This document shows, in pieces, positions 19,633 through 20,426 of a stretch of 64,000 nt of DNA. The notes under the pieces were generated by a model, which made no database searches, was not told the DNA's origin, and saw only the letters and a program-made list of their open reading frames with translations. The position numbers were made by a program, and so were the translations under genes. This stretch comes from a virus, in IMG/VR virus record IMGVR_UViG_3300049893_002799, positions 1 through 64,000 of that record. One strand, given 5' to 3'. Numbering within the stretch: the stretch's first letter is position 1; the number at the start of each line of letters is the position of its first letter.

Positions 19633-19708
19633 TGGTGCTCCCGACGGGACTCGAACCCGCATCTCTGACTTTTAGAGGGTCGTGTTTTAGCCATTAAACT
19701 ACGGGAGC
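19633..19708 (-). tRNA. amber-suppressor tRNA, anticodon CUA, 76 nt with encoded CCA
   Basis: GCTCCCG/CGGGAGC acceptor stem, GTTT/AAAC D stem, anticodon loop CT-CTA-AA, GCGGG-TTCGAGT-CCCGT T arm, A73-CCA. The anticodon stem has two C-A mismatches. Confidence 0.88.
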
Positions 19709-19715
19709 AATATCT

Positions 19716-20051
19716 TTATACTAAAGGAAGCGATTTCAATAAGCTTTCTAGTGTTAGACCCCAAGCTGCTATAGCTGTCTGCTGATTGCCGATATCTGGT
19801 TCATAGAATTCATTGTAAGAATTAGTTGTTGACTTTATTTTACTCGACCATTCTTGAAGTTGTTCAAGATTTCTCACTTTTAATAAGACAATAGTTTCAT
19901 TTTTCCACAGCAACTGATCTTCACATTGACCGCACCGGCAAGGTATCCTGTTATCGTATAGCATGAATTCAGCTACCGCATGAGTAGCCTGAACTGCTTG
20001 CTGGGATTTTGACAAATCTCCGCGCACCAAGACATATAGCTTGTTAACCAT
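19716..20051 (-). CDS. Pth2-family peptidyl-tRNA hydrolase-like protein
   Basis: KLYVLVRGDL...QQAVQATHAVAEF...W...TIVLLKV...FYEPDIGNQQTAIA; probable ATG at 20051. Confidence 0.78.
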   Translation of the reverse strand: MVNKLYVLVRGDLSKSQQAVQATHAVAEFMLYDNRIPCRCGQCEDQLLWKNETIVLLKVRNLEQLQEWSSKIKSTTNSYNEFYEPDIGNQQTAIAAWGLTLESLLKSLPLV

Positions 20052-20343
20052 TTGATGCCTCAACTGATATCTCACTATATTCTTTCATTATAGAGTCTAT
20101 AAGTGACCAGTTGGGTTCATTTCCCTCTTTCACCTTATTCTCTATTTGCTGATACTTTTTTCCACGAAGTAAGCAATAAGCAATATGGAGATGACGGTAA
20201 TCACCTGCCGGTTTATTTCTAGCGAAGATATAATAGGTGTCCCACAGGATTTTGCCGCGCTGACAATCCTTGTAAAGGTGTTTTTCTGCACGAATAGAGA
20301 GAGCCAATTCTTTAAGACGATTTTTAAGTTCTTTGATTTTCAT
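20044..20343 (-). CDS. hypothetical protein coupled to the Pth2-like gene
   Basis: 99 aa with a YRHLHIAYCLLRGK motif; its GGAG SD lies inside a hairpin. Confidence 0.75.
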   Translation of the reverse strand: MKIKELKNRLKELALSIRAEKHLYKDCQRGKILWDTYYIFARNKPAGDYRHLHIAYCLLRGKKYQQIENKVKEGNEPNWSLIDSIMKEYSEISVEASNG

Positions 20344-20346
20344 ATG

Positions 20347-20391
20347 TTACTCCATTTATTAAGTTAAGATACAAACTATATAATGGAGTAA
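20347..20391 (-). promoter_or_regulatory. RBS-sequestering hairpin
   Basis: mRNA UUACUCCAUU (20391-20382) pairs with AAUGGAGUAA (20356-20347), 3 nt before the ATG at 20343; inner UAU/AUA and AGUU/AACU pairs extend the stem. Confidence 0.75.
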
Positions 20392-20426
20392 TGCTAGGGA
20401 GGTTTAAATATGGGGCGTATCTACAT
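20364..20426 (-). other. putative amber-rich leader peptide M*IRPIFKPP*HYSII*FVS-TAA
   Basis: ATG TAG ATA CGC CCC ATA TTT AAA CCT CCC TAG CAT TAC TCC ATT ATA TAG TTT GTA TCT TAA; the ATG overlaps the endolysin TGA (TGATG). Confidence 0.62.

What the first reader, a model, noticed from the sequence alone, without database searches (positions are those of the whole stretch)
19633..20426. Candidate new system: amber-sensing operon (UAG-rich leader, RBS-masking hairpin, unknown protein, Pth2-like hydrolase, tRNA-CUA)
Seen: five elements sit in tandem on the minus strand directly behind the endolysin. They are a leader with three in-frame UAGs, a hairpin hiding the next RBS, a 99-aa unknown gene, a coupled Pth2-like gene and, 7 nt later, a tRNA whose anticodon reads UAG. 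Known: attenuator leaders (trpL, ermCL) are enriched in the codon they sense, and start-stop minigenes such as lambda bar cause peptidyl-tRNA drop-off that Pth relieves. Inference: the module measures UAG read-through (suppressor level, or loss/inhibition of host RF1) and switches on a ribosome-rescue or counter-defence pair. The suppressor tRNA is on the same transcript, which would allow feedback. The genome is not recoded, so the tRNA looks regulatory rather than a code switch.
Basis: partly seen in the sequence, partly recalled or inferred. Interest (0 to 1): 0.92.

Follow-up and report, generated by a model that had tools for sequence, protein, structure and literature searches.

The report
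Stop-codon read-through switch in phage
A freshwater phage with the normal genetic code has a small gene cassette whose short leader probably lets two proteins (an unknown helical one and a peptidyl-tRNA-hydrolase-like one) be made only when the cassette's own UAG-reading tRNA overrides that stop codon. About 60 to 80 distant phage sequences share this design, and I found it described in no paper.

Summary
All five elements are present at the stated coordinates. What makes them convincing is comparison with related sequences, not the window alone.

- **Gene order.** Among 77 distinct related phage loci, the order 99-aa gene, then Pth2-like gene, is constant. A same-strand tRNA(CUA) lies in 29 of the 31 loci with enough flank.
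- **Leader.** 53 of 65 distinct upstream regions hold a short leader: start, 0-10 codons, UAG, 1-22 codons, Pro-Pro. Shuffled controls gave 1 of 3250.
- **Hidden ribosome-binding site.** The 99-aa gene's site is predicted paired (median probability 0.99, against 0.48 in control genes). Its pairing partner always lies on the Pro-Pro codons or within about 15 nt after them.
- **Stalling motif.** Many relatives end in RGPP, RAPP or RDPP, which are published ribosome-arrest motifs. The window has the KPP-UAG form.
- **Genetic code.** The genome is not recoded.

Best reading: a leader-peptide attenuator whose inducer is amber read-through by the cassette's own tRNA. What the two proteins do is unknown. 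Nothing here is experimental.

Earlier reports of this scan describe the same design on other genomes. My paper searches found no description of it.

The parts
20364..20426 (-). Leader ORF: M-UAG-IRPIFKPP-UAG-HYSII-UAG-FVS-UAA. Its ATG overlaps the endolysin stop (TGATG). The conserved core is the first UAG (20423-20421, followed by A) and K-P-P (20405-20397).
   Evidence: Read from the sequence. The same frame is kept in the closest relative L001, with three synonymous third-position changes. The leader pattern occurs in 53 of 65 distinct related upstream regions, against 1 of 3250 shuffles and 7 of 2783 random windows. The base after a leader UAG is a purine in 86 of 88 cases, against 58 of 105 ordinary TAG stops.
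20347..20391 (-). Hairpin that masks the ribosome-binding site. The 5' arm (20391-20382) starts 3 nt after the second UAG. The 3' arm (20356-20347) contains GGAG (20353-20350) of the 99-aa gene.
   Evidence: Minimum-energy and centroid folds. Pairing probability of the site is 1.0 here; the family median is 0.99 against 0.48 in 145 control genes, Mann-Whitney p = 1.5e-18. The pairing partner overlaps the Pro-Pro codons or lies within about 15 nt after them in all 58 loci analysed. L001 has a stem of different sequence at the same place.
20044..20343 (-). 99-aa helical, Lys/Arg-rich protein of an unnamed phage family (conserved core Y-R-H-x-H-I-A-Y-C-L-L-R-G-x-x-Y-x-x-I-E). It is the constant partner of the Pth2-like gene.
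   Evidence: 558 clusters at E <= 1e-3. A family profile hits the ORF directly upstream of the Pth2-like gene in 85 of 110 sequences searched (109 fetched loci plus the window). It is fused to the Pth2-like domain in single ORFs of 185 and 186 aa in L019 and L097. AlphaFold2 model: pLDDT 90, all helical. No informative Pfam, PDB or fold match.
19716..20051 (-). Divergent Pth2-like hydrolase, 111 aa. It is translationally coupled to the 99-aa gene by an 8-nt overlap.
   Evidence: PF01981 23.0 bits, equal to the cut-off. The family profile matches solved Pth2 chains, E = 3e-6. AlphaFold2 pLDDT 95; the top Foldseek hits are solved Pth2-family chains (plus one protein of unknown function), with 2zv3 at TM 0.64-0.75. 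Invariant positions are R10, D12, Q17, Q18, H24, E84, D86 and T92. Six related loci also carry a canonical PTH2 (116 bits) beside the cassette.
19633..19708 (-). Amber-suppressor-type tRNA. Anticodon loop CUCUAAA, CCA encoded, and C27/A43 and C31/A39 both unpaired. It lies 7 nt after the Pth2-like stop with no terminator-like site between.
   Evidence: ARAGORN. Rfam tRNA 59.7 bits, E = 4e-12, with the two mismatches marked. No minus-strand terminator-like site was found in 18700-21400. A same-strand tRNA(CUA) lies in 29 of the 31 class A loci with at least 1 kb on both sides.
20426..20971 (-). Endolysin (context). Its stop codon overlaps the leader's start, so leader translation is probably coupled to endolysin translation.
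   Evidence: PF00959 E = 1.4e-45, phrog_7. The same overlap (TAGTG) is seen in L001.

Best explanation
The locus is a self-contained phage cassette in this order: leader, hairpin, 99-aa protein, Pth2-like hydrolase, tRNA(CUA). I read the leader and hairpin as a translational attenuator whose inducer is amber read-through.

**Proposed steps (all inferred from anatomy and conservation):**
1. The cassette is transcribed with the endolysin gene, and the tRNA is cut out of the same transcript.
2. Ribosomes finishing the endolysin restart at the overlapping ATG and meet UAG at once.
3. Without a working suppressor, release factor RF1 ends translation there. The hairpin keeps the 99-aa gene's ribosome-binding site paired, and both proteins stay off.
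4. When charged tRNA(CUA) wins against RF1, the ribosome goes on to K-P-P-UAG. In relatives this position holds R-G/A/D-P-P, a known arrest motif.
5. The ribosome pauses there and covers the 5' arm of the hairpin, which starts 3 nt after the A-site codon. That frees the ribosome-binding site.
6. The 99-aa gene is translated, followed by the coupled Pth2-like gene.

**Shown here:** the anatomy, its conservation, the geometry and the standard genetic code.
**Inferred:** that the tRNA is made and charged, that it reads the leader UAG, and that Pro-Pro stalls the ribosome here.

**Output.** The two proteins act together; they are fused in two relatives. They most likely hydrolyse ester-linked tRNA produced by suppressor activity. 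My split is:
- about 35%: they act on the suppressor's own aminoacyl or peptidyl ester, which would be a negative feedback that sets the read-through level;
- about 35%: they recycle peptidyl-tRNA or rescue ribosomes after read-through;
- about 30%: something else.
For: - **Conserved gene order.** Order is kept across Pth2-like identities of 32-66%.
- **Leader.** A leader preceded in most loci by a ribosome-binding-site-like sequence (seen by eye in the printed upstream regions, not scored), with an early UAG and then Pro-Pro, occurs in 53 of 65 distinct loci. The other 12 include visible variants (GTG start..R-S-P-stop, start further up); at least one (L036) shows no UAG..Pro-Pro at all. Controls gave 0.03% and 0.25%.
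- **Selection on the peptide.** Pro codons vary at third positions through 14 codon pairs. The window and L001 differ by three synonymous changes within the conserved core of the leader.
- **Read-through context.** The base after UAG is a purine in 86 of 88 cases against 58 of 105, Fisher p = 5e-13.
- **Masked ribosome-binding site.** Median pairing probability is 0.99 against 0.48, p = 1.5e-18.
- **Geometry.** The pairing partner lies within reach of a ribosome sitting on Pro-Pro in 58 of 58 loci. The distance from Pro-Pro to the 99-aa start clusters at 53-66 nt.
- **Published arrest motifs.** RGPP, RAPP, RDPP and RSPP are reported as arrest or arrest-permissive motifs that are excluded from proteomes, and the arrest of RAPP-containing peptides was shown not to be relieved by EF-P (PMC12992588; PMC10951233). 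Gly is the residue before Pro-Pro in 22 of 53 leaders, nearly all as R-G-P-P.
- **A second route to the same logic.** A distant subgroup lacks the leader and the 99-aa gene. It carries an early in-frame UAG inside the Pth2-like gene itself.
- **One matching exception.** The single locus with a tRNA(UCA) has an in-frame UGA there instead.
- **No recoding.**
- **No terminator-like site.** None was found on the minus strand within the cassette.
Against: - No experiment of any kind, and no RNA data for this phage.
- The window's motif is F-K-P-P, not R-x-P-P, so published arrest data do not cover it directly.
- In 29 of 58 loci the Pro-Pro codons are themselves the pairing partner of the ribosome-binding site (CCUCC-like). 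Part of their conservation could therefore be at RNA level.
- The window hairpin region does not fold better than shuffled sequence (z = -0.87).
- The tRNA has only three Watson-Crick pairs in its anticodon stem, so its activity is uncertain. An unpaired 27/43 is, however, reported to raise UAG read-through (PMC13092985).
- TAG ends some real genes of this phage and 99 of 587 long ORFs in the related loci. A strong suppressor should therefore be costly, and no benefit of the tRNA has been identified.
- A later check inside this scan priced a similar 'self-contained switch' claim on another genome at 20/100.
Confidence: 0.65

Rival explanations
1. The leader senses termination efficiency rather than the tRNA. 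It would report RF1 availability, for example RF1 depletion or inhibition during infection, and the tRNA would only set a constant competitor level.
For: Read-through is by nature a competition between RF1 and the tRNA. The tRNA sits on the same transcript, so its supply is roughly tied to leader supply. In this window and L001 a second UAG follows Pro-Pro directly, where RF1 action is expected to be slow (the slowness is general knowledge).
Against: In most loci the stop after Pro-Pro is TAA or TGA, or sense codons follow. RF1-specific stalling at that site is therefore not conserved. Nothing in the window suggests RF1 inhibition.
Confidence: 0.12
2. An RNA-only element. The conserved CCNCC and UAG are parts of a structured 5' leader (a thermometer, or a protein- or RNA-binding site) that masks the ribosome-binding site. 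The short ORF is not translated, or its translation is irrelevant.
For: Half of the loci use the Pro-Pro codons themselves as the pairing partner of the ribosome-binding site. Several leaders are extremely short, such as M-UAG-I-Y-K-P-P in L105.
Against: In the other 29 loci the pairing partner lies downstream, yet Pro-Pro is still kept. Pro codons vary synonymously, including CCA-CCG and CCG-CCG, which do not match a ribosome-binding site. An upstream ribosome-binding site plus ATG in frame is visible in most loci, and the base after UAG is biased as expected for read-through. The distant subgroup places the UAG inside the coding gene itself.
Confidence: 0.08
3. The tRNA is a genetic-code switch (TAG read as an amino acid in late genes), as in crAss-like and Lak phages, and the cassette is an accessory to recoding.
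For: Lak phages and huge phages carry Pth2-like homologues.
Against: The whole 81-kb genome is densely coding under the standard code (table 11). Reading TAG as sense merges only one pair of long ORFs. In 42 related loci, reading TAG as sense gains no more coding coverage than reading TGA as sense (0.83 against 0.85).
Confidence: 0.03
4. Coincidence. The three TAGs, the inverted repeat and the neighbouring genes have no joint function.
For: Within this window alone the fold z-score is weak, and the loose leader pattern matches 9 places in the genome.
Against: The arrangement recurs in dozens of diverged loci with strong statistics.
Confidence: 0.02

Closest known systems
RAPP/RGPP-type regulatory arrest peptides (ApdA, ApdP, ApcA; SecM with RAGP; Streptomyces RAPP/RGPP uORFs): PMC12992588, PMC10951233, PMC7897499
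   Same: A short upstream ORF ends in (R)-x-P-P and sits just before a regulated gene. Many relatives of this leader end in exactly RGPP, RAPP or RDPP.
   Different: Known examples are 'monitoring substrates' whose N-terminal export signals sense Sec or YidC activity. These leaders are only about 6-25 codons long and have no such signal. The arrest motif can be reached only through a UAG. The window itself has K-P-P, which those papers did not test.
Leader-peptide translational attenuators (ermCL/ermC, catA86 and cmlA leaders)
   Same: A ribosome pausing in a short leader melts the 5' arm of a hairpin that sequesters the next gene's ribosome-binding site (general knowledge). The same geometry is found here.
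   Different: There the inducer is an antibiotic bound in the ribosome. Here it would be decoding of a stop codon by a tRNA encoded in the same cassette.
prfB (RF2) autoregulation through an in-frame UGA
   Same: Gene expression depends on the outcome of competition at a stop codon (general knowledge).
   Different: prfB uses a +1 frameshift and senses its own product. This cassette uses read-through plus a stall and hairpin, and the product is not a release factor.
Suppressor tRNAs of stop-codon-recoded phages (TAG read as Gln, 'code 15'; crAss-like, Lak; bioRxiv 10.1101/2021.08.26.457843)
   Same: A phage-encoded tRNA(CUA).
   Different: Those phages have many in-frame TAGs in late genes. 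This genome and the related loci do not. Here the only evident client of the tRNA is the cassette's own leader.
PTH2 of jumbo phages (Iyer et al. 2021, PMC7824862) and the CUA tRNAs without a known target in Xanthomonas phage XacN1 (PMC5852040)
   Same: Phage Pth2-type hydrolases and suppressor tRNAs in standard-code phages have each been noted.
   Different: Neither paper links the two, describes the 99-aa partner or describes the leader. The protein here is a divergent paralogue that can sit beside a canonical PTH2.

Membership tests
PTH2 peptidyl-tRNA hydrolase (PF01981) | Sequence match to the family model at or above the curated cut-off | tested here: met
   23.0 bits against a cut-off of 23.0, so borderline. 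The family profile matches solved Pth2 chains at E = 3e-6 to 1e-2. hhalign against canonical phage PTH2 gives 91% probability over the N-terminal 81 columns only.
PTH2 peptidyl-tRNA hydrolase (PF01981) | Pth2 alpha/beta fold | tested here: met
   AlphaFold2 pLDDT 95. The top Foldseek hits are solved Pth2-family chains (2zv3, 3erj, 1wn2, 1q7s, 1xty, 1rlk) plus one protein of unknown function (2gax), mostly at TM 0.57-0.75.
PTH2 peptidyl-tRNA hydrolase (PF01981) | Catalytic motifs (basic G-K-G-K loop after R-x-D-L; D-x-G-x-T-(E/Q) segment) | tested here: inconclusive
   R-x-D-L and the H-A motif are kept. The K-G-K loop is replaced by (K)-S-Q-Q. The C-terminal segment reads E-P-D-I-G-x-x-x-T and is about 5 residues shorter; it was not aligned by hhalign.
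PTH2 peptidyl-tRNA hydrolase (PF01981) | Hydrolysis of peptidyl-tRNA | not testable with these tools
   This needs enzyme assays.
RAPP-like arrest peptides | R-(A/G)-P-P or R-A-G-P core at the stall site | tested here: not met
   The window has F-K-P-P and L001 has Y-K-P-P. Relatives do meet the feature: Gly precedes Pro-Pro in 22 of 53, nearly all as RGPP, and RAPP and RDPP also occur. The window is therefore filed as 'works like', not as a member.
RAPP-like arrest peptides | Encoded just upstream of, and regulating, a downstream gene | tested here: met
   The leader ends 21 nt before the 99-aa start. The ribosome-binding site is masked and the geometry is conserved.
RAPP-like arrest peptides | Demonstrated ribosome stalling | not testable with these tools
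   This needs toeprinting, a PURE system or reporters.
Leader-peptide translational attenuator (ermC type) | The ribosome-binding site of the regulated gene is sequestered by a hairpin whose 5' arm is covered by a ribosome paused in the leader | tested here: met
   (58 of 58 loci).
Amber suppressor tRNA | tRNA cloverleaf with anticodon CUA, U33 and a purine at 37 | tested here: met
   Rfam tRNA 59.7 bits; loop C-U-C-U-A-A-A.
Amber suppressor tRNA | Aminoacylated, and decodes UAG on the ribosome | not testable with these tools
   The amino-acid identity is unknown. Discriminator bases vary among relatives (A, G, U, C).
Stop-codon-recoded phage (TAG as sense) | In-frame TAGs within conserved long genes | tested here: not met

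The most novel reading that the evidence does not exclude
The cassette is a homeostat of stop-codon read-through. In this reading the tRNA(CUA) induces a specialised Pth2-like hydrolase plus a tRNA-binding adaptor (the 99-aa protein) through the arrest leader. These two then act on the suppressor's own aminoacyl or peptidyl ester. The result would either hold amber read-through at a set level or convert UAG decoding by the tRNA into RF1-independent peptide release. That would make it a mobile, phage-borne device that both changes and measures the meaning of a codon.
Probability: 0.2. Interest if true: 0.92.

Novelty: new variant of a known kind. Interest (0 to 1): 0.8.

Why it matters
[quoted passage not shown] I found no published regulator of this type.
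- **An open question.** It would explain why standard-code phages, including cultured ones such as XacN1, carry CUA tRNAs with no known target.
- **Translation control.** It links ribosome-arrest peptides to control of the genetic-code state.
- **A new protein pair.** It points to an uncharacterised pair, a 99-aa helical protein with a divergent Pth2 paralogue, that is tied to suppressor tRNA biology.
- **Synthetic biology.** It would be a compact, portable reporter or controller of amber suppression.

Tried and rejected
Only one close relative of the locus (L001/L031, a 4.7-kb contig) was available.
- **Single-sequence searches found nothing:** IMG/VR scans with either protein, blastn of the locus against phage records, and tblastn of the 99-aa protein against phage records.
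- **99-aa protein:** no Pfam family for it or for 98 relatives, no PDB sequence match, only generic helical matches from Foldseek and VIA-align, no usable ESM Atlas lead, and no longer fused forms from the word-based search.
- **Complex prediction** for Pth2-like plus 99-aa gave no verdict.
- **Sequencing runs:** no RNA holder is listed for this DNA. Contigs from four freshwater or sediment runs laid on the locus were identical to the window wherever they covered it well. They therefore gave no natural variants with which to test covariation in the hairpin.
- **Genome-wide leader pattern:** 9 loose matches, the other 8 with no ribosome-binding-site-like sequence upstream and none beside the cassette, so no second client of the tRNA was found.
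- **Possible early-TAG extension of the gene at 3528..4622**: it has no ribosome-binding site and looks like chance.
- **lambda bar minigene / Pth drop-off idea:** considered, but not supported by anything specific.
- **Conserved neighbours:** none beyond the cassette. The next most frequent neighbouring family occurs in only 12 of 100 loci.
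Full report
**What is in the window.** The window is the first 64 kb of an 81,272-bp single-contig phage-like genome. It carries tail, baseplate and virion genes, a helicase, a sigma-70-type factor and an endolysin. 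Identical sequence occurs in freshwater and sediment metagenomes from several studies.

On the minus strand, the endolysin (20971..20426) ends in TGA. That TGA overlaps an ATG that opens a short frame, M-UAG-I-R-P-I-F-K-P-P-UAG-H-Y-S-I-I-UAG-F-V-S-UAA (20426..20364). A 10-bp stem (20391-20382 with 20356-20347) starts 3 nt after the second UAG. It pairs the GGAG that serves the ATG at 20343.

Three more elements follow:
- a 99-aa ORF (20343..20044);
- a 111-aa Pth2-like ORF (20051..19716) whose ATG overlaps the 99-aa stop;
- 7 nt later, a tRNA with anticodon CUA (19708..19633; Rfam 59.7 bits).

No terminator-like site lies on this strand within the cassette.

**The genome is not recoded.** Under the standard code (table 11) the genome is tightly packed with long ORFs. 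TAG ends only a handful of them. Reading TAG as sense merges only one pair of long ORFs, which lies outside the window.

**The window alone proves little.** The spacer does not fold better than shuffled sequence (z = -0.87). A loose 'M..UAG..PP' pattern matches nine places in the genome, and eight of those have no ribosome-binding-site-like sequence upstream and none lies beside the cassette. The question had to be settled by comparison.

**Homologous loci.** The Pth2-like protein has 49 cluster relatives. A family alignment retrieved 30 IMG/VR loci and 79 metagenome loci. It retrieved only 4 loci from 185,579 species genomes, all on MAG contigs. The family is thus essentially phage-borne.

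Two classes emerged.

*Class A (77 distinct loci, including the window).* A profile of the 99-aa family hits the ORF directly upstream of the Pth2-like gene; counting duplicates, it hit 85 of the 110 sequences searched (109 fetched loci plus the window). In L019 and L097 the two are fused in single ORFs of 185 and 186 aa. A same-strand tRNA(CUA) lies in 29 of the 31 loci with at least 1 kb on both sides. In 30 of the 63 loci with enough downstream sequence it starts within about 130 nt after the Pth2-like gene.

*Class B (a distant subgroup).* These loci lack the 99-aa gene. They carry an early in-frame UAG inside the Pth2-like gene itself (M-T-UAG-V-Q.., M-A-UAG-I-K..), and the tRNA(CUA) is upstream. 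The one locus with a tRNA(UCA) has an in-frame UGA at that place.

No other neighbouring gene is widely conserved. The cassette therefore behaves as a unit.

**The leader is conserved.** I translated the 150 nt upstream of each class A 99-aa gene in all frames. Almost every locus shows a short ORF, in most loci preceded by a ribosome-binding-site-like sequence (judged by eye, not scored): start, 0-10 codons, UAG, 1-22 codons, Pro-Pro, then usually a stop. The pattern occurs in 53 of 65 distinct regions, against 1 of 3250 shuffles and 7 of 2783 random windows of the same loci. The other 12 include visible variants: a GTG start..R-S-P-stop, or a start further upstream; at least one (L036) shows no UAG..Pro-Pro at all.

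The closest relative, L001, keeps the window's frame. Its GTG overlaps the endolysin's TAG, and the frame reads L-UAG-I-Y-K-I-Y-K-P-P-UAG. It differs from the window by three synonymous third-position changes in the conserved core.

Across loci the two Pro codons use 14 different codon pairs, which argues for selection on the peptide. The base after a leader UAG is a purine in 86 of 88 cases, against 58 of 105 for ordinary TAG stops (p = 5e-13). The codon before it is mostly Thr or Pro. From general knowledge, a purine after UAG favours suppression.

**The hairpin property is conserved.** The ribosome-binding site of the 99-aa gene has a median predicted pairing probability of 0.99. In 145 control genes from the same loci the median is 0.48 (p = 1.5e-18), and the window scores 1.0. 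In all 58 loci analysed, the site's pairing partner either overlaps the Pro-Pro codons (29 loci) or lies within about 15 nt downstream (29 loci, including the window). The distance from Pro-Pro to the 99-aa start clusters at 53-66 nt. L001 has a stem of different sequence at the same position. This is the geometry of an ermC-type attenuator: a ribosome sitting on Pro-Pro would occupy the pairing partner.

**Stalling.** Gly precedes Pro-Pro in 22 of 53 leaders, nearly all as R-G-P-P. RAPP, RDPP and RSPP also occur. RGPP and RAPP are published as versatile arrest motifs, with RGPP the strongest, and the arrest of RAPP-containing peptides was not relieved by EF-P. RDPP and RSPP are partly permissive. 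All are excluded from bacterial proteomes (PMC12992588; PMC10951233). The window's subgroup has K-P-P followed by a stop. Stalling there rests on general knowledge of slow Pro-Pro synthesis and slow termination after Pro, not on those papers.

**The proteins.**
- *Pth2-like protein.* It has the Pth2 fold: pLDDT 95, and the top Foldseek hits are solved Pth2-family chains. By sequence it is a borderline member (23.0 bits; profile E = 3e-6 against solved Pth2). It keeps R-x-D-L and H-A, replaces the K-G-K loop, and has a shortened C-terminal catalytic segment.
- *A canonical PTH2 beside it.* Six related loci carry a canonical PTH2 (116 bits) next to the cassette. The divergent protein is therefore probably a specialised paralogue, not a generic peptidyl-tRNA recycler.
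- *99-aa protein.* It is a confident all-helical, Lys/Arg-rich model with no informative relative.

**The tRNA.** The anticodon loop is canonical for a suppressor (C-U-C-U-A-A-A). In the window both 27/43 and 31/39 are C/A mismatches. Among the cassette tRNAs, 31/39 is unpaired in 24 of 65, against 2 of 141 other tRNAs of the same loci (p = 6e-12). The 27/43 pair is not enriched for mismatches. An unpaired 27/43 is reported to raise UAG read-through (PMC13092985). Discriminator bases differ among relatives, so no single amino-acid identity is implied.

**Reading.** The best-supported explanation is a translational attenuator gated by amber read-through. Without suppression, RF1 stops the leader at codon 2 and the hairpin keeps the operon off. 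With suppression, the ribosome reaches K-P-P-UAG, pauses and frees the ribosome-binding site. Alternatively it reads on to the UAA 21 nt before the 99-aa start and re-initiates. Class B reaches the same logic by a different route, which strengthens the inference that the Pth2-like protein is meant to be made only when the suppressor works. What the protein pair does is open; the split of odds is given under the best explanation. The rivals considered are an RF1 sensor, an RNA-only element, a code switch and chance.

**Literature and earlier notes.** Six searches found papers that note PTH2 in jumbo phages (PMC7824862) and target-less CUA tRNAs in XacN1 (PMC5852040). None links them or describes the leader. 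Earlier reports of this scan describe the same design on other genomes. I reached the leader and arrest reading from my own before I read the second set of notes. The first set prompted the check for early UAGs. One earlier claim was later priced at only 20/100 for lack of any experiment, and that caution applies here too.

**Verdict.** It is a new variant of a known kind (a leader-peptide attenuator) with an undescribed input and an uncharacterised output.

Noticed in passing
genome 72693-74984, minus strand (outside the window; L112:8693-10984): A 519-aa ORF with a NUDIX domain ends in TAG. It is followed in frame, after one codon, by the ATG of a 242-aa ORF. Amber read-through would fuse them into 763 aa, making this a possible second client of the tRNA.
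   Followed up: partly
window 18854-19597, minus strand: A calcineurin-type metallophosphoesterase (NinI-like, phrog_246) starts 35 nt after the tRNA. It weakly resembles the phosphatase part of a phage RNA-ligase family (phrog_8238, 7e-8). It could be an RNA-end-healing enzyme.
   Followed up: no
L006:3650-4045, L007:4093-4482, L014:3648-4037, L038:1583-1963, L043:7-387, L075:3893-4291: A canonical PTH2 (PF01981, 116 bits) is encoded beside the cassette in six related loci. Those phages therefore carry both a standard Pth2 and the divergent paralogue.
   Followed up: partly
tRNA(CUA) genes of loci L001-L109 and window 19633-19708: Position 31/39 of the anticodon stem is unpaired in 24 of 65 cassette tRNAs, against 2 of 141 other tRNAs in the same loci. 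The window tRNA also has 27/43 unpaired, which leaves three Watson-Crick pairs.
   Followed up: partly
L023:2846-3040: This is the only locus with a tRNA(UCA). It has an ATG preceded by a ribosome-binding site, then five codons, then an in-frame TGA directly before the Pth2-like coding sequence. The stop codon and the anticodon appear to change together (n = 1).
   Followed up: partly
genome 75900-81272 (outside the window; L112:11900-17272): The last 5 kb or so has higher G+C (0.47-0.49, against about 0.40-0.45 elsewhere). It has few long ORFs under the standard code, or when TAG or TGA is read as sense. This is unexplained.
   Followed up: no
window 17720-18406, minus strand: A phage-encoded sigma-70-family factor (regions 1.2, 2 and 3) lies 1.2 kb downstream of the cassette.
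   Followed up: no
window 42881-48493 and 50684-58234, minus strand: Two very large ORFs (1870 and 2516 aa) have tail-fibre and baseplate-wedge matches. The 707-aa baseplate-like gene between them is one of the few that end in TAG; the next in-frame stop is 6 codons later.
   Followed up: no
L038:4274-4879, L062:1179-1781 and 10 further loci: A protein of about 200 aa with an Ogg-type helix-hairpin-helix glycosylase domain recurs near the cassette in 12 of 100 loci. HNH endonuclease genes recur in 8.
   Followed up: partly
L110 (Xanthomonas phage XacN1, AP018399.1 243756-244595): In this cultured phage the Pth2-like segment is the C-terminal third of an annotated 280-aa hypothetical protein (ORF364). 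No tRNA is annotated within 2.5 kb; the paper places the two CUA tRNA genes of XacN1 among the tRNA-like sequences of its terminal repeats.
   Followed up: no
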